A stretch of 11,850 nt of DNA from a virus (IMGVR_UViG_3300029190_000061:1-11850), one strand, 5' to 3'. Counted from the first letter of the stretch, positions 5,393 to 8,075 are shown. Program-made: numbers and translations. Notes: generated from the sequence alone by a model not told the origin.

Positions 5393-5423
5393 ATGATTCC
5401 ATACCTTACAAGTATGGAATCAT
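5393..5423. other. Perfect palindrome ATGATTCCATAC-cttacaa-GTATGGAATCAT (12-bp arms, 7-bp spacer), candidate recombinase core site
   Basis: Exact reverse-complement arms at 5393..5404 and 5412..5423, about 100 bp upstream of the recombinase start. Geometry matches lox/FRT/dif-type core sites. Confidence 0.4.
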
Positions 5424-5592
5424 TTATATAGCTTACGTAAATTCTGAATAAATTATGTAGACAAACCATCTTAAACGCTAAATAGTAAAAAGCGCCTAAT
5501 AACGCCAACTTTGGAATGCCATCTGAGCCAGATTGATGAGAATGATTTGTTAGAAGAAAAAGAATGATGAAGAAGATGACGATCGCTAAAGT

Positions 5593-6009
5593 TCAGCTAG
5601 AATGGAAACCTTCTGCGACTTCAGCGAAGTAGCTGAGCAACCTAGTATCTCTTGCTGGCATACGATCGTGAGCTGGAGTGACTAGCCCCATCAGCAAAAA
5701 ACGCCCGCTATCCCACATGTGCTCGGTATAAACGAGATAGTGGTTTGAGGTTCGGTTGTAGTTCTCTTGCCTTGCGTTCCAGGTAAGCTGGAAATGCAAA
5801 TTGACGTGAATATGCTGGACATTAGCATCAACGGCGAACGGCGGGAAGTCAAATGGCGCATCTCGTCCAAGAAGATTAGATGGTGCGCCAGTTGATTTGT
5901 AAGTAATGAACTCGGATTTGAGCTGACTTTCTAGGTCAGGGTAAACGACAAAAGTGGGCTGAAAAAAATCATCCCACGTAACTTGACTGTATTCAGCCGT
6001 TAATGCCAT
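5593..6009 (-). CDS. YafO-family toxin-like protein (138 aa)
   Basis: From memory of E. coli YafO, shared blocks include FI(T/S)YK..G...GRDA, HIH, LVY and ARD...AE.F. Start overlaps the upstream gene stop by 10 nt (ATGGCATTAA). Confidence 0.55.
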   Translation of the reverse strand: MALTAEYSQVTWDDFFQPTFVVYPDLESQLKSEFITYKSTGAPSNLLGRDAPFDFPPFAVDANVQHIHVNLHFQLTWNARQENYNRTSNHYLVYTEHMWDSGRFLLMGLVTPAHDRMPARDTRLLSYFAEVAEGFHSS

Positions 6010-6548
6010 TTAGCCGCAGCCTTGTTGCCAGTCTCTAATAGATGGTTCATGGCTAAAAGGTTGACACCAGAGTCACGCACTACAGAAGTGCGTGTAATCT
6101 GATCAATCAGATTGAGATAGTTTTTGGTCGCAATACTGACCATTTTAATAGCCTTAAAAAACGCAAACTCAACAGTGTTTTTGTCGTAAGACATGATGAC
6201 GTCTTTTTCAGGTAACATCAAAACAAAAGATTCTGCGATACCGGCTACATGAATAGTTTGATTCTTAATTTCTTCCGCTACTTTGATAGCAGCAAAGAAG
6301 TCAGTGTCAGCATAATGAGCAAGTTCAGCGCGGCTTGAACGCAGTTCTTTAGCCAATTCATTGAGAGCAGCTGTAAGATCACTGATGTCGGTTTTGTTGA
6401 CTCTAGCGCCCATCTCATAAACCCGTTCTACAATCGTAGGCTGACACGCAACCGCTTTGGGTTGCGGCTGGATACTGGCAAGAACCAGTGCCACTGCTGC
6501 CTGCAAATGCTGGATTTTAAATTTCACGATAGACTCCATAATCGTCAT
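6000..6548 (-). CDS. Hypothetical protein (182 aa), putative partner or antitoxin of the YafO-like gene
   Basis: Track ORF directly upstream of and overlapping the toxin-like gene, the classic antitoxin-toxin order. About twice the size of YafN/DinJ-type antitoxins, with no motif I recognise. Confidence 0.5.
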   Translation of the reverse strand: MTIMESIVKFKIQHLQAAVALVLASIQPQPKAVACQPTIVERVYEMGARVNKTDISDLTAALNELAKELRSSRAELAHYADTDFFAAIKVAEEIKNQTIHVAGIAESFVLMLPEKDVIMSYDKNTVEFAFFKAIKMVSIATKNYLNLIDQITRTSVVRDSGVNLLAMNHLLETGNKAAAKWH

Positions 6549-6623
6549 TTCTCGACGAAGCGTAGCATTCTACTACTGAACTTAACTATAAGCTAAAAAA
6601 AGTTGGTTGCATATGCGACTTGA

Positions 6624-6650
6624 TAGCAAAAAGGGGCCGAAGCCCCTTTG
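6624..6650 (-). terminator. Rho-independent terminator-like hairpin
   Basis: Stem AAAGGGGC / GCCCCTTT at 6630..6649 with loop CGAA. On the minus strand the stem is followed by a T5 run. Lies downstream of the tRNA and upstream of the toxin operon. Confidence 0.55.
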
Positions 6651-6723
6651 GATTTTGCGCTGAAAAAAGTGTTGCTACGATGCTTAGAAGCAATGGTTAA
6701 AAAACGTCTGCCGTGTCTATCAC

Positions 6724-6798
6724 AGCGCTGAACGGTCTGGCGACATTTGCGGAGTCTTTCGTTCGGACGGTGGTGGCGAATCCAAACCGTTCAGCGCT
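6724..6798. repeat. 13-bp perfect inverted repeat AGCGCTGAACGGT / ACCGTTCAGCGCT enclosing 49 bp
   Basis: Arms at 6724..6736 and 6786..6798 are exact reverse complements. Starts 5 nt beyond the tRNA 3' end. Confidence 0.45.
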
Positions 6799-6802
6799 AT
6801 GT

Positions 6803-6877
6803 TGGCGATGGTGGGTGGACTCGAACCACCGACCAGTTGATTAACAGTCAACCGCTCTACCACTGAGCTACACCATC
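6803..6877 (-). tRNA. tRNA-Asn (anticodon GTT), 75 nt with encoded CCA
   Basis: Manual fold of the minus-strand sequence: 7-bp acceptor stem GATGGTG/CACCATC, D arm GCTC-AGTGGTA-GAGC, anticodon stem GTTGA/TCAAC with loop CTGTTAA, T arm GGTGG-TTCGAGT-CCACC, discriminator G, CCA. Differs from the E. coli tRNA-Asn sequence as I recall it. Confidence 0.8.
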
Positions 6878-7126
6878 ATTTTCGCGGCGGTACTAGCTTA
6901 TGGACAACCAGGCAGCCAGAAACTTTCCCGTAACTTGCACTTTACGTTAGTGCCAGACGAGGTATGTGGCTCGCTCATATGAGCGAAGATCTCGAATCTT
7001 TCTCGGTGGTTGATTGCCGTTAGATTCTTCGATCTTATTGGATGTATGGAATCATACATGTTGTGAAGCCAGGGGCAATAAAGGCAACAATGTTTTCACT
7101 AGAGGGTTAATTAATCCTGCTTTCAC

Positions 7127-7236
7127 AACGTTGAGATCACTGAACCGATTAATGTTCAACCCAACATATTGATCAGTCGCTACAGCTATGTGGAATCGCC
7201 TGTATGATTTTAAGAAAAATCAGTGATCTCAACGTT
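7127..7236. repeat. 17-bp perfect inverted repeat AACGTTGAGATCACTGA / TCAGTGATCTCAACGTT flanking 76 bp
   Basis: Arms at 7127..7143 and 7220..7236. A shorter hairpin GCTGACT-aacca-AGTCAGC follows at 7241..7259. The region carries no convincing CDS. Confidence 0.5.
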
Positions 7237-7607
7237 ATGTGCTGACTAACCAAGTCAGCCGGGTTACGTCGCCGCTTTTAACCCAAGTATAAACGACATA
7301 AGTAATGGAAATGACGTAACAGAATGGACGGTCAGCTGAAACCGGGATGGGTGAATGGAATGATGAAACCAACCGCCCATTCTGTTACTTCATTGAATGG
7401 GGCATGGATGGTGCAATATGCCCTATTCTGCGTTCTGCAATCACACTCGCTCAGTGTGTCCCATTTTGGTGACGAGGCTGGAAACTGACCTCGCTGGTGT
7501 TTGGCTTCTTAGGCTACTGCCAGGTATGCATCTTCGTTTGCAGTTATATTTAACGTTCAAACAGTCGCATCTCAACGAAAACAAAGTGATCTTATACATA
7601 TTAGATA

Positions 7608-7625
7608 AGTAAGTAAATACTTATC
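7608..7625. promoter_or_regulatory. Near-palindromic motif AGTAAGTA-AA-TACTTATC (site B), overlapping the stop codon of the 101-aa gene
   Basis: Direct sequence reading. With its GATA 5' extension (7604..7607) it matches site D at 20 of 22 positions. Confidence 0.45.
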
Positions 7626-7926
7626 TATCTGTGATGCGTTTAGTTGCTATCTTTTTGATCAGGCTCCCCTTTTGTTCCGAAGTTCTCGTGATGATGGCGG
7701 TAAAACGCTTCGCTTGAATAGTGATAGTTTCGTTTTCCTTGAGTTCGCCGTAATGCGTCTCTAACAGGGACCCCAGACGCCACAGACCGTCGTCTATGCG
7801 TTTATGGCTGGCGAATCTGATCAGCAGTAGCTTTACGATTAACTGACCAATGTAAAAGGCAAATCCGAAGCCGGCCGCCACAAGGTAGGTTGCCAGCCAC
7901 CAGTCGAAGGAAGTCAAATTGCTCAT
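7621..7926 (-). CDS. Small membrane protein (101 aa), last gene of the ligase operon
   Basis: Track ORF. ATG at 7926 overlaps the upstream stop as ATGA; GGGAG lies about 10 nt upstream. One hydrophobic segment WWLATYLVAAGFGFAFYIGQLIVKLLLI followed by a basic tail. Confidence 0.55.
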   Translation of the reverse strand: MSNLTSFDWWLATYLVAAGFGFAFYIGQLIVKLLLIRFASHKRIDDGLWRLGSLLETHYGELKENETITIQAKRFTAIITRTSEQKGSLIKKIATKRITDR

Positions 7927-8075
7927 TTTCGCACTCCCGTCTCGTGAACAACCCGATACACACGCTTACCGACACGAAGTGTTTTGGTTTGCAGTTCCTG
8001 CTGGACCAGGGCGCGGCAGATTGCGAGGCCGAGGCCCACGCCACCAGTGAATGATAAAATGATGTATGGAATCAT
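7923..8075 (-). CDS. Putative small membrane peptide (50 aa), MIPYIILSFTGGVGLGLAICRAL...
   Basis: Hand-translated and below the ORF-track size cutoff. Start overlaps the upstream stop as TGATG and the stop overlaps the downstream start as ATGA. GGGGG lies 8 nt upstream. Confidence 0.35.
   Translation of the reverse strand: MIPYIILSFTGGVGLGLAICRALVQQELQTKTLRVGKRVYRVVHETGVRK

What the first reader, a model, noticed from the sequence alone, without database searches (positions are those of the whole stretch)
5393..8075. Perfect 12-7-12 palindrome next to the recombinase, with its half-site repeated as an identical 15-mer at two distant loci
5393..5423 is an exact inverted repeat with a 7-bp spacer, about 100 bp upstream of the tyrosine recombinase gene, matching the geometry of a core recombination site. 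The half-site GTATGGAATCAT recurs inside an identical 15-mer GATGTATGGAATCAT at 7041..7055 and 8061..8075; chance expectation for a given 15-mer in 12 kb is about 1e-5. The 8061..8075 copy forms the start codon region of the 50-aa ORF (MIPYI) and the 7041..7055 copy encodes a dead-end MIPYIQ-stop, so these may be recombination scars or secondary sites. The 5393 arm is inverted relative to the other copies, so a recombinase-mediated inversion or deletion between sites is conceivable.
Basis: partly seen in the sequence, partly recalled or inferred. Interest (0 to 1): 0.6.

Follow-up and report, generated by a model that had tools for sequence, protein, structure and literature searches.

The report
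Recombinase site plus conserved orphan half-sites
The palindrome is very probably the target site of the neighbouring recombinase, an uncharacterised Cre/lox-like pair kept by a whole family of phage-plasmids and large plasmids. The distant 15-mers are conserved single copies of one arm of that site, not recombination scars, and their job is unknown.

Summary
The palindrome is 14-7-14 (5391-5425). The 15-mer GATGTATGGAATCAT is exact at 7041 and 8061, and a third copy lies just outside the window in dnaE.

The window is an SSU5-like phage-plasmid of E. coli. Nearly every recombinase relative I fetched (45-100% identity, about 150 loci) has a 7-bp-spaced palindrome upstream. Only two arm types occur: GTATGGAATCA and GTCTGGAGTCA. 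In megaplasmids only the gene and the site are shared. The protein folds like lambda Int core plus catalytic domains but has no arm-binding domain. All 235 E. coli copies are on plasmids. So the site is best read as the recombinase's own crossover site, lox-like, probably for multimer resolution. That role is inferred, not shown.

The "scars, inversion or deletion" reading is not supported. The 15-mers are invariant while their flanks diverge, even at synonymous sites and in a variable DnaE loop. One changes together with the arms. No rearrangement or homology breakpoint occurs at them in the roughly 150 loci that span them. Their spacer-side bases do not match the palindrome's spacer.

Their function is open: recombinase monomer sites, or an RNA pairing motif.

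In passing I found a conserved structured RNA candidate of about 470 nt at 7120-7587, with no Rfam match.

The parts
5391..5425 (.). Core site: AAATGATTCCATAC - CTTACAA - GTATGGAATCATTT. The 12-bp arms at 5393-5404 and 5412-5423 are invariant in all SSU5-like relatives. The 7-bp asymmetric spacer is at 5405-5411.
   Evidence: perfect 14-7-14; arms identical in 81 loci while the spacer differs by lineage; distant homologues carry TGACTCCAGAC-N7-GTCTGGAGTCA at the same place.
4189..5292 (-). Tyrosine recombinase, 367 aa. It has a core-binding domain and a catalytic domain but no arm-type DNA-binding N-domain.
   Evidence: PF00589 at 6.5e-9, PF22022 weak; only residues 68-359 match integrase profiles, and the first ~136-190 profile positions (the arm-binding part) are unmatched. 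AlphaFold2 pLDDT 83; the best folds are lambda Int 75-356, Tn1549 Int, XerA/XerH and IntI; invariant R185, K211, R284, Y321 and nearly invariant H307.
5426..5460 (.). Semi-conserved flank outside the arm far from the gene. It holds AATTCTGAA (5440-5448, the reverse complement of TTCAGAATT), an A/T tract and a variable hexamer. It may be an accessory element of the site.
   Evidence: YCAGAWTT lies 17-27 bp from the arm in both arm classes, including Pantoea, Chimaeribacter and Nissabacter.
5323..5338 (.). LexA-box-like CTGTATTTATAAACAG between the site and the recombinase start codon.
   Evidence: sequence. CTGT-N8-ACAG is kept in Cyrano, Yersinia, Kluyvera and the Klebsiella 58% group, and is absent from the Pantoea/Rahnella group.
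7041..7055 (+). Orphan half-site 1: GATGTATGGAATCAT. It is non-coding and lies between tRNA-Asn and the structured RNA candidate.
   Evidence: the 15-mer is invariant while its flanks diverge; present in lineages down to 58% recombinase identity, and in L234 it carries the same T-to-C change as that lineage's palindrome arms; mutated (TGTACGG) only in SSU5, which lacks the recombinase.
8061..8075 (+). Orphan half-site 2: GATGTATGGAATCAT. On the minus strand it forms codons 1-5 (MIPYI) of orf50 and overlaps the stop codon of the 70-aa gene 8075-8287.
   Evidence: exact in nearly all loci, including all synonymous positions; in L234 the peptide IPYI is kept but the DNA has drifted to 10 of 12.
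4676..4688 (-). Degenerate copy inside the recombinase gene (TTTATGGAATCA, coding LWNQ). In other lineages it reads GATGTATGGAATCAA/G.
   Evidence: D13, I23.
5461..6627 (-). Variable cargo slot. Here it holds a YafO-family toxin (5593-6009) and a 182-aa partner (6000-6548). It is bounded on the right by the hairpin AAAAAGGGGCCGAAGCCCCTTT (6628-6649).
   Evidence: PF13957; at least 20 unrelated cargo sequences abut the same hairpin; other cargoes include glutaredoxin, PhoH, and Acb2/Tad1-like and Tad2-like genes.
3796..4194 (+). 132-aa helix-turn-helix protein convergent with the recombinase gene. It belongs to the module in SSU5-like elements only.
   Evidence: phrog_8 transcriptional regulator; absent beside most distant homologues that still carry the palindrome.
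6803..6877 (-). tRNA-Asn (GTT).
7120..7587 (-). Conserved structured RNA candidate. An outer stem probably reaches 7061. Orphan half-site 1 lies just beyond its tRNA-proximal end.
   Evidence: conservation. RNAalifold gives -139.6 on the minus strand against -102.8 on the plus strand; 88 pairs, 33 with compensatory double changes; no Rfam family; found by nhmmer in four more distant lineages.

Best explanation
The window comes from an SSU5-like phage-plasmid of E. coli.

The palindrome at 5391-5425 is the cognate DNA site of the adjacent tyrosine recombinase. Two recombinase monomers bind the two 12-14-bp arms, and strand exchange would take place across the 7-bp asymmetric spacer, whose family consensus, oriented, is TTNNTAG. 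The enzyme is a stripped-down relative of P4/lambda-type integrases. It keeps the core-binding and catalytic domains but has no arm-binding domain, so it should work on a simple lox- or dif-like site.

Its most likely job (inferred) is to convert plasmid multimers to monomers. It may also circularise incoming phage DNA, as Cre/loxP does for phage-plasmid P1. It is unlikely to integrate the element into a chromosome. In this clade the gene sits behind a LexA-type box, so it is probably induced by the SOS response (inferred).

The 15-mers at 7041 and 8061, a third in dnaE outside the window and, in some lineages, a fourth inside the recombinase gene, are single arms of that site. They have been kept by selection at fixed positions of the backbone. 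They are neither scars nor crossover partners. My best guess is that each binds one recombinase monomer and serves a non-recombination role such as repression, a roadblock or DNA looping. I put about 0.4 on that step.
For: Shown:
1. Context. The window is 99.5% identical to E. coli plasmids of 106-115 kb and 79% to phage Cyrano, and shares synteny with SSU5.
2. Palindrome conservation. The arms are identical in 81 loci with recombinase identity of 80-100%, while the spacer varies. The whole 31-bp site, spacer included, is identical in Chimaeribacter, where the protein is only 59% identical.
3. Coupling to the recombinase. Homologues at 45-50% identity (Pantoea, Rahnella, Erwinia, Ewingella, Xenorhabdus, Morganella and others) have a palindrome at the same place with the other arm type, GTCTGGAGTCA, and again a 7-bp spacer. 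Of 64 genome loci, 58 have it perfect or nearly so, 1 has one arm mismatch, and 5 show none.
4. Minimal unit. Only the gene and the site are shared in those loci. In the Pantoea and Rahnella megaplasmids the gene stands alone among metabolic genes.
5. Protein. It gives a confident two-domain tyrosine-recombinase fold closest to lambda Int 75-356. The N-terminus is helical, with no arm-binding domain, and the catalytic residues are conserved.
6. Lifestyle. 234 of 5,426 complete E. coli genomes carry it: 235 places on plasmids and none on chromosomes. All 585 PLSDB plasmids that match the SSU5 junction are interrupted there, so the recombinase-less arrangement is seen only in the phage isolate SSU5.
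7. Vertical inheritance. The order ligase - cargo - recombinase - CobT - dnaE holds from E. coli to Xenorhabdus.
8. Orphan half-sites.
- The 15-mer is invariant while the flanks diverge.
- In dnaE it encodes CMES in a loop that has other residues in lineages without the motif.
- Such copies occur only in lineages whose arms are GTATGGAATCA(T/C). Lineages with the other arm type have no equivalent repeat.
- In L234 the arms and the intergenic copy both read GTATGGAATCACA.
- SSU5, the one genome without the recombinase, has a substitution in the non-coding copy, while its 99.3% identical relative with the recombinase does not.
Against: - No experiment shows binding, cleavage or resolution, and I found no paper on this site.
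- Symmetric arm changes fit an RNA or DNA hairpin, or an operator for self-repression, as well as a crossover site.
- The apparent break of homology exactly at the outer arm is partly a BLAST effect. About 30 bp beyond the arm are still semi-conserved. One chimera has its junction inside the recombinase gene, which points to homologous rather than site-specific exchange. So I have no direct trace of crossover in the spacer.
- For the orphan half-sites:
  - The invariant GAT prefix has no counterpart in the palindrome.
  - The covariation rests on one substitution event.
  - The SSU5 mutation is a single case; about 3 mismatches in 453 bp give roughly a 9% chance of hitting the 13-mer.
  - L157 lacks the recombinase yet keeps three exact copies.
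  - The copies lie 1.6-6.2 kb from the core, too far for a classical accessory site.
  - Their sense/antisense arrangement also fits RNA-RNA pairing.
Confidence: 0.6

Rival explanations
1. The 15-mers act as RNA, not DNA. All genes here are transcribed leftward. The transcript carrying the structured RNA candidate and the orf50 start contains AUGAUUCCAUACAUC. The dnaE mRNA, and in some lineages the recombinase mRNA, contains the perfect complement GAUGUAUGGAAUCAU. A processed RNA tail would then pair with the dnaE and recombinase messages to control replication or induction, as in the RNA immunity systems of P1 (c4) and P4 (CI), recalled from my own knowledge.
For: - The two copies upstream in transcription have one sense and the dnaE and in-gene copies have the complementary sense.
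- The intergenic copy sits beside the structured RNA candidate in every lineage that has both.
- The three extra conserved bases (GAT) are shared among the orphans but not with the palindrome.
- Two of three observed variants would keep G-U pairs.
Against: - It does not explain why the motif equals the recombinase arm. That arm is older and exists without any of these genes (Chimaeribacter).
- In L234 the dnaE partner is absent and the orf50 copy has decayed, yet the intergenic copy is kept and follows the arms.
- The variant in L048 would give a C-A mismatch.
- The orf50 copy has the same sense as the proposed seed, so it cannot be its target.
- There are no transcript data.
Confidence: 0.22
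2. The palindrome is only a regulatory element, an operator through which the recombinase or another protein represses the recombinase promoter, or a transcript hairpin. It is not a crossover site.
For: - It lies 75-250 bp upstream of the gene in every lineage, with promoter-like -10 hexamers 15-20 bp downstream of the near arm in several groups.
- Symmetric arm changes also fit a hairpin.
- In the window a T-run follows it on the minus strand.
Against: - The arm sequence, not just the pairing, is nearly frozen into two types across 45-100% protein identity. That indicates sequence-specific protein recognition.
- The 12-7-12 geometry with a polar spacer matches tyrosine-recombinase core sites.
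- A catalytically intact recombinase with no other candidate site would be left without a substrate.
- The T-run is absent in other lineages.
- Self-repression and crossover at one site are compatible, so this is a rival only in its exclusive form.
Confidence: 0.1
3. One reading: the 15-mers are scars of past recombination or secondary crossover sites, and the recombinase inverts or deletes the segments between them.
For: - They share the 12-mer with the arms.
- The orientation is mirrored around the palindrome: minus on the dnaE side, plus on the tRNA side.
- Rci/sfx shufflon sites show that a tyrosine recombinase can use sites with one conserved arm (my own knowledge).
Against: - There is no partner arm, and the spacer-side 7-mers differ from each other and from the palindrome spacer.
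- All roughly 60 ligase-anchored loci that include the recombinase have the same order and orientation. The recombinase-anchored set of 80 loci and the intermediate lineages agree.
- Loci with a single copy keep both native flanks, so they are not deletion products.
- No homology breakpoint falls at 7041 or 8061.
- Two copies lie in conserved reading frames, and one interrupts nothing in dnaE.
- Invariance is the opposite of what a scar should show.
Confidence: 0.05
4. The recombinase is a classical integrase and the palindrome is the attP core for integration into the host chromosome, for example at a tRNA gene.
For: - It is annotated as 'site-specific integrase' and its nearest sequence relatives, at about 30% identity, are P4-type integrases.
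- A tRNA-Asn gene lies 1.4 kb away.
Against: - None of 235 E. coli occurrences is chromosomal.
- There is no arm-binding domain.
- No repeat of the tRNA 3' end was found in the window.
- The tRNA belongs to the conserved phage backbone and is present in SSU5 without the recombinase.
- Perfectly symmetric arms are unusual for an attP core (my own knowledge).
Confidence: 0.03

Closest known systems
Cre/loxP of phage-plasmid P1, and its relatives Dre/rox and Vika/vox
   Same: - It is a single tyrosine recombinase encoded next to its own site on a plasmid prophage.
- The site is two perfect inverted arms (13 bp in loxP, 12-14 bp here) around a short asymmetric spacer that gives it polarity.
- No arm-type sites are needed.
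- The expected role is multimer resolution or circularisation.
   Different: - There is no detectable sequence similarity to Cre: no PDB chain matches at E<=0.01, and by fold Cre ranks far below lambda Int.
- The spacer is 7 bp, not 8.
- The enzyme derives from the P4/lambda integrase branch.
- A LexA-type box precedes the gene.
- Conserved orphan half-sites have no counterpart in P1 that I know of.
- Activity is untested.
Lambda/P4-type phage integrases (attP with core and arm sites)
   Same: - These are the closest fold and sequence relatives.
- The spacer length matches the 7-bp overlap region of lambda (my own knowledge).
   Different: - There is no N-terminal arm-binding domain.
- The core arms are perfectly symmetric.
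- There is no chromosomal integration.
- The extra copies are core-type half-sites kilobases away, not arm-type sites within about 150 bp.
XerD-binding sites (XDS) in the Bacillus subtilis terminus region (my own knowledge; not checked in the paper library)
   Same: They are lone half-sites of a tyrosine-recombinase site, scattered at kilobase distances from the full site and kept for a role that does not involve recombination.
   Different: - Those sites are chromosomal, use the host Xer system and act on SMC complexes.
- Here the sites are on a phage-plasmid, partly inside coding sequence.
- Binding has not been shown.
Accessory recombinase-binding repeats of resolution and integron sites (TnpI IRS DR1/DR2 of Tn4430; IntI1 attI1 DR1/DR2) (my own knowledge)
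   Same: They are extra single copies of the core arm motif bound by the same recombinase.
   Different: Those repeats lie within about 60-120 bp of the core and form one nucleoprotein complex. Here the copies are 1.6, 2.6 and 6.2 kb away.
Rci/sfx shufflon of IncI plasmids (my own knowledge)
   Same: It is a plasmid tyrosine recombinase whose sites have a 7-bp spacer and one conserved 12-bp arm.
   Different: sfx sites share the spacer and drive inversions that are visible as variants. Here the spacers differ and no inversion is seen in any fetched relative.

Membership tests
Tyrosine recombinase superfamily (PF00589) | Catalytic domain with the R-K-H/x-R-H/W-Y residues | tested here: met
   PF00589 at E=6.5e-9, above the cut-off. 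R185, K211, R284 and Y321 are invariant and H307 nearly so across 22 homologues. The first position of the HxxR box is R281. Assigning residues to catalytic roles is inference from motif order.
Tyrosine recombinase superfamily (PF00589) | Two-domain fold: a core-binding helical domain plus a catalytic domain | tested here: met
   AlphaFold2 pLDDT 83.2. Foldseek probability is 1.00 to lambda Int 75-356, Tn1549 Int, XerA, XerH and IntI.
Simple recombinase/site pairs (Cre/loxP type) | Site made of two inverted arms of 11-14 bp around a 6-8-bp asymmetric spacer | tested here: met
   14-7-14 in the window. The 7-bp spacer is kept in about 150 loci, with oriented consensus TTNNTAG.
Simple recombinase/site pairs (Cre/loxP type) | Site co-inherited with the gene, with specificity changing together | tested here: met
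   Two arm classes follow the protein lineages. Gene plus site is the only shared unit in megaplasmids.
Simple recombinase/site pairs (Cre/loxP type) | No arm-binding domain and no requirement for arm sites | tested here: met
   The N-terminal 67 residues match no arm-binding profile and are predicted helical.
Simple recombinase/site pairs (Cre/loxP type) | Recombination between two sites by the recombinase alone | not testable with these tools
   This needs an in vivo or in vitro assay.
Cre family proper | Sequence homology to Cre | tested here: not met
   No PDB chain matches at E<=0.01 by phmmer. Cre chains score E of 0.02 or worse by Foldseek, against 3.5e-7 for lambda Int.
Lambda/P4-type integrase with attP | N-terminal arm-type DNA-binding domain (PF13356 or similar) | tested here: not met
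   It is absent here, although the ~30% identical relatives have PF13356.
Lambda/P4-type integrase with attP | Element found integrated in chromosomes and flanked by hybrid att sites | tested here: not met
   0 chromosomal places against 235 plasmid places in 5,426 complete E. coli genomes.
Integron (IntI, attI, attC cassettes) | Array of cassettes, each ending in a recombination site, next to the integrase | tested here: not met
   No further copies or near-copies of the arm occur inside the variable cargo of 160 loci, and cargo ends share no motif. The only resemblances are the LexA box and the adjacent variable region.
Shufflon / invertible-segment systems | Alternative orientations or deletions of the segments between sites among relatives | tested here: not met
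   The order and orientation of all copies are the same in every locus that spans them. Single-copy loci keep their native flanks.
Orphan recombinase half-sites with a non-recombination role (XDS-like) | Lone arm without a partner arm, conserved in position | tested here: met
   There is no inverted partner at 7-bp spacing. The positions are syntenic down to 58% recombinase identity.
Orphan recombinase half-sites with a non-recombination role (XDS-like) | Bound by the recombinase | not testable with these tools
   The support is indirect only: one covarying substitution, restriction to the matching arm class, and a mutation in recombinase-less SSU5.

The most novel reading that the evidence does not exclude
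The orphan 15-mers form a regulatory network that ties three things together: the plasmid-maintenance recombinase, the phage replicative polymerase (the motif is written into a tolerant loop of DnaE), a small membrane-protein gene, and a previously unannotated ~470-nt structured RNA. The link would be either recombinase monomers used as site-specific repressors or roadblocks, or a 15-nt RNA seed on that RNA that pairs with the dnaE and recombinase messages. Either would be a new control layer for the switch between plasmid and phage lifestyles in SSU5-like elements.
Probability: 0.3. Interest if true: 0.75.

Novelty: new member of a known kind. Interest (0 to 1): 0.55.

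Why it matters
SSU5-like phage-plasmids are common in E. coli, Klebsiella, Salmonella, Enterobacter and Yersinia pestis (pMT1) and can carry resistance genes. How they keep themselves as monomeric low-copy plasmids has not been described.

A self-contained recombinase and 31-35-bp site, in two natural specificities (GTATGGAATCA and GTCTGGAGTCA arms), would explain that maintenance step. 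It would also offer candidate recombinase/site pairs for genome engineering that are unrelated in sequence to Cre/lox.

The conserved orphan half-sites are unusual. One is embedded in a polymerase gene, one in a start codon, and one lies beside a large unannotated structured RNA. They give a concrete handle on how such elements couple maintenance, replication and induction.

Tried and rejected
1. Cargo capture at the palindrome. BLAST blocks containing the recombinase gene end at 5423-5429 in almost all relatives, and I first read this as crossover in the site. Inspection showed about 30 bp of semi-conserved flank beyond the arm. The 99%-identical chimera L008 has its junction inside the recombinase gene. 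The far cargo boundary, the hairpin at 6628, has no arm-like sequence. Rejected as evidence; the region is simply a cargo hot spot between two conserved elements.

2. The recombinase module as a recent insertion next to tRNA-Asn, suggested by its absence from SSU5. Rejected. The same gene order holds down to 46% identity, and no plasmid has the SSU5 arrangement, so SSU5 lost it.

3. The 15-mers as sigma-70 promoters. Two weak hits overlap them (TTGCCC-16-TATGAT and TTGACT-16-GATGAT), but the -35 parts are not conserved in other lineages.

4. The 15-mers conserved by protein coding alone. Rejected. Synonymous sites are invariant. In L234 the peptide IPYI is kept while the DNA drifts. CMES lies in a variable DnaE loop.

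5. An equivalent repeat with a different sequence in lineages with the other arm type. None of 12 nt or longer was found.

6. The HTH protein as the binder of the palindrome. Unlikely, because the palindrome persists where that gene is absent.

7. Rfam match for the palindrome or the intergenic RNA. None was meaningful.

8. Literature. Searches by name and by the exact arm sequences found nothing on this site.

Full report
**1. The observation**

- ATGATTCCATAC (5393-5404) and GTATGGAATCAT (5412-5423) are perfect inverted repeats separated by CTTACAA.
- The perfect symmetry extends to 14-7-14 at 5391-5425.
- GATGTATGGAATCAT is exact at 7041-7055 and 8061-8075. Allowing two mismatches, the only other hits in the window are the two arms. 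None of 200 dinucleotide shuffles gave four hits.
- On the minus strand the 8061 copy forms codons 1-5 (MIPYI) of the 50-aa ORF 7923-8075. The 7041 copy reads MIPYIQ-stop.
- In a 99.5% identical complete plasmid (NZ_CP101235, 115,200 bp) the 12-mer occurs five times and never with one mismatch; about 0.015 exact copies are expected. The fifth copy lies in dnaE, about 770 bp beyond the left end of the window, in the opposite orientation.

**2. Context**

The window is part of an SSU5-like phage-plasmid.

Genes and features, almost all on the minus strand:
- a CobT-like gene (995-3292);
- a 132-aa helix-turn-helix protein (3796-4194, plus strand);
- the tyrosine recombinase (4189-5292);
- the palindrome;
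- a YafO-family toxin pair (5593-6548);
- a hairpin at 6628;
- tRNA-Asn (6803-6877);
- about 740 bp of non-coding DNA;
- orf101, orf50 and a 70-aa gene;
- an ATP-dependent DNA ligase (8447-9769).

Phage SSU5 itself lacks everything from 3353 to 6760.

**3. The palindrome belongs to the recombinase**

Close relatives. In 80 viral contigs plus phage Cyrano, with recombinase identity of 80-100%, the two 12-bp arms are identical everywhere. The 7-bp spacer differs by lineage: TTGTAAG, CTATTAA, CTACTAT, TTGGTAG, TTAATAG, TCCTTAG and TCTTTAG.

Distant relatives. A scan of one genome per species with an alignment of homologues returned 65 loci.
- Homologues at 45-50% identity in Pantoea, Rahnella, Erwinia, Ewingella, Hafnia, Xenorhabdus, Photorhabdus and Morganella carry a palindrome 75-250 bp upstream of the gene.
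- Its arms are different, TGACTCCAGAC-N7-GTCTGGAGTCA, and the spacer is again 7 bp.
- Five loci showed none.
- Chimaeribacter homologues, 58-59% identical, have the window's arms. In L090 the whole 31-bp site is identical to the window's.

So the arm sequence is almost frozen into two types that follow the protein lineage, and both arms change together. Oriented alike, the spacers read TTNNTAG, and the site occurs in both orientations relative to the gene.

What is shared. In most distant loci only the recombinase gene and the palindrome are shared. In the Pantoea vagans and Rahnella victoriana megaplasmids the gene stands alone among metabolic genes. This makes the recombinase, rather than the helix-turn-helix neighbour, the partner of the site.

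**4. The protein**
- It passes the Pfam threshold for the tyrosine-recombinase catalytic domain.
- R185, K211, R284 and Y321 are invariant and H307 is nearly invariant in 22 homologues.
- Only residues 68-359 align to integrase profiles. The part of those profiles that corresponds to the arm-binding domain is unmatched. The ~30% identical P4-type relatives do have that domain.
- The AlphaFold2 model (pLDDT 83) has a short helical N-terminus. It matches lambda Int 75-356 best, then Tn1549 Int, XerA/XerH and IntI. Cre is a much weaker match.
- No solved chain is similar by sequence.

It therefore works like a simple recombinase on a simple site, but it is not a member of the Cre family.

**5. 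Likely role**
- All 235 occurrences in 5,426 complete E. coli genomes are on plasmids; none is chromosomal.
- All 585 PLSDB plasmids that match the SSU5 CobT-tRNA junction are interrupted at that point. The recombinase-less arrangement is seen only in the phage isolate.
- The order ligase - cargo - recombinase - CobT - dnaE holds down to 46% recombinase identity, so the gene is an old, vertically inherited part of the backbone.
- Cyrano is kept at about 5.5 copies per cell (PMC9928086).

These facts fit a plasmid-maintenance role, namely multimer resolution and perhaps circularisation after infection, as with Cre/loxP of P1. They argue against chromosomal integration. The role itself is inference.

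A CTGT-N8-ACAG box (5323-5338) lies between the site and the start codon. It is kept in the SSU5-like clade and the Klebsiella 58% group, but not in the Pantoea group. SOS control is therefore likely in this clade.

**6. What I withdrew**

BLAST blocks containing the recombinase gene stop at 5423-5429 in nearly all relatives, and at least 20 unrelated cargoes follow. I first took this as a trace of crossover in the site. Two observations undo that reading.
- The 30 bp beyond the arm keep a common architecture in the whole family: YCAGAWTT, an A-tract and a variable hexamer. In the window, AATTCTGAA lies at 5440-5448.
- The chimera L008 has its junction inside the recombinase gene.

The site is thus a conserved island beside a cargo hot spot. 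I have no direct evidence for site-specific cargo exchange.

**7. The 15-mers**

They are lone arms, with no partner arm at 7-bp spacing. The seven bases on their spacer side (ATTGGAT, AAATGAT, GGAAGAT) match neither each other nor the palindrome spacer. This argues against crossover with the palindrome under the usual homology rule.

They are not decaying.
- The 15-mer is invariant at three syntenic positions while the flanks diverge.
- The positions persist in lineages with 59-63% recombinase identity (Nissabacter, Serratia, L241), always with the GAT prefix.

Coding constraint cannot explain this.
- All synonymous positions are fixed.
- In L234 the peptide IPYI is kept but the DNA has drifted to 10 of 12.
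- The dnaE copy encodes CMES in a loop that reads GEEVPVYKMGRQ or GEELLPIDRDFG in lineages without the motif.

The link to the recombinase is indirect.
- Orphan copies exist only where the arms are GTATGGAATCA(T/C).
- SSU5-like elements with the other arm type have neither their own arm nor any other 12-mer repeated at those places.
- In L234 the arms and the intergenic copy share the change to GTATGGAATCACA.
- SSU5, which lacks the recombinase, has TGTACGGAATCAT in the non-coding copy. Its 99.3% identical relative with the recombinase is intact. This is one case, with about a 9% chance expectation.
- Against the link, L157 lacks the recombinase and keeps three exact copies.

No relative shows an inversion, a deletion with hybrid flanks, or a homology breakpoint at the 15-mers.

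**8. Mechanism of the orphans: open**

The model I favour, at about 0.4, is binding of single recombinase molecules for repression, roadblock or looping, in the manner of lone XerD sites in Bacillus (my own knowledge). One detail fits it: an A two bases inside the arm boundary is common to all arms and all orphans.

The main rival, at about 0.22, acts at the RNA level. All genes here are transcribed leftward. The copies at 7041 and 8061 therefore appear as AUGAUUCCAUACAUC in RNA. The dnaE copy, and the copy inside the recombinase gene in some lineages, appear as the exact complement. The 7041 copy abuts a large structured RNA candidate.

That model explains the shared GAT. It does not explain identity with an arm that exists elsewhere without these genes, nor the behaviour of L234.

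**9. Structured RNA candidate (noticed in passing)**
- Positions 7120-7587 are far better conserved than their surroundings.
- The region folds better on the minus strand: -139.6 against -102.8 kcal/mol.
- In an 18-sequence alignment it has 88 predicted pairs, 33 of them with compensatory double changes.
- An outer stem (GTTGTGAA at 7061-7068 with TTCACAAC at 7122-7129) also covaries.
- nhmmer finds it in four more distant lineages.
- No Rfam family matches.

**10. Comparison with known systems, and novelty**

It works like Cre/loxP: a single recombinase, an adjacent symmetric site with a polar spacer, and a plasmid prophage. By descent, however, it is a P4/lambda-type enzyme without the arm-binding domain.

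It fails the defining tests for three other families:
- a classical integrase (no arm-binding domain, no integration);
- an integron (no site-bounded cassettes);
- a shufflon (no shared spacers, no inversions).

I found no description of the site in the paper library, either by name or by sequence.

I rate it a new member of a known kind. The conserved orphan half-sites are the unusual feature.

**11. Verdict**

The scar and rearrangement idea is not.

Noticed in passing
window 7120-7587 (minus strand); an outer stem probably reaches 7061: A conserved ~470-nt non-coding block between tRNA-Asn and orf101 has extensive compensatory base changes: 88 predicted pairs, 33 with double changes in 18 sequences. 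It folds better on the minus strand and has no Rfam match. It is a candidate large structured RNA of SSU5-like phage-plasmids and is also found in Nissabacter, Serratia and Klebsiella lineages.
   Followed up: partly
window 5323-5338: LexA-box-like CTGTATTTATAAACAG lies just upstream of the recombinase start. CTGT-N8-ACAG is kept in the SSU5-like clade and the Klebsiella 58% group and is absent from Pantoea/Rahnella homologues. It suggests SOS control of the recombinase.
   Followed up: partly
window 5426-5460 (AATTCTGAA at 5440-5448): The flank outside the arm far from the gene keeps a common layout in both arm classes: YCAGAWTT 17-27 bp from the arm, an A-tract and a variable GC-rich hexamer. 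In Pantoea, TCAGAWT occurs twice, 11 bp apart. It may be an accessory element of the site.
   Followed up: partly
window 5461-6627; right boundary hairpin 6628-6649: This is a cargo hot spot. At least 20 unrelated inserts abut the same hairpin AAAAAGGGGCCGAAGCCCCTTT. The inserts include YafO toxin pairs, glutaredoxin, PhoH, and genes with Acb2/Tad1-like and Tad2-like (anti-defence) domains in related elements (L234, L239, L241).
   Followed up: partly
window 7603-7628, 956-977, 11214-11235, 3720-3735: A second repeated palindrome, AGATAAGTA-N6-TACTTATCT, sits at gene ends or intergenic points. Its core AAGTAAATACTTA is conserved in relatives. It could be a bidirectional terminator or a regulator site.
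   Followed up: no
window 3277-3309: The inverted repeat CTGTACGAACAG-N9-CTGTTCGTACAG overlaps the start of the CobT-like gene. It is also present in SSU5 (L085, about 11934-11966).
   Followed up: no
L085 (SSU5) 11880-12000, against window 3353-6760: Phage SSU5 lacks the whole recombinase module. No PLSDB plasmid shares that arrangement, so it looks like a loss in the phage isolate. SSU5 also has the only substitution seen in the non-coding orphan half-site.
   Followed up: yes
window 7923-8075 (orf50) and 7621-7926 (orf101): Both are small proteins with a hydrophobic N-terminal segment. The first five codons of orf50 are the orphan half-site. Its sequence (IILSFTGGVGLGLAICRAL followed by a basic tail) looks like a small membrane peptide.
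   Followed up: no
window 6721-6740 and 6782-6801: A 20-nt inverted repeat flanks the region just 3' of tRNA-Asn. The arm next to the tRNA is in SSU5 too, and the other arm belongs to the end of the conserved block that begins at the 6628 hairpin.
   Followed up: no
window 11343-11645: An IS3-family transposase orfA (PF01527) lies at the right edge of the window. It explains the thousands of unrelated plasmid hits obtained with the whole window.
   Followed up: no
window 10831-10866: An 18-bp tandem duplication (ACAGTCTGATTGGTGTAG x2, 94% identical) lies inside the 270-aa ORF 10362-11174.
   Followed up: no
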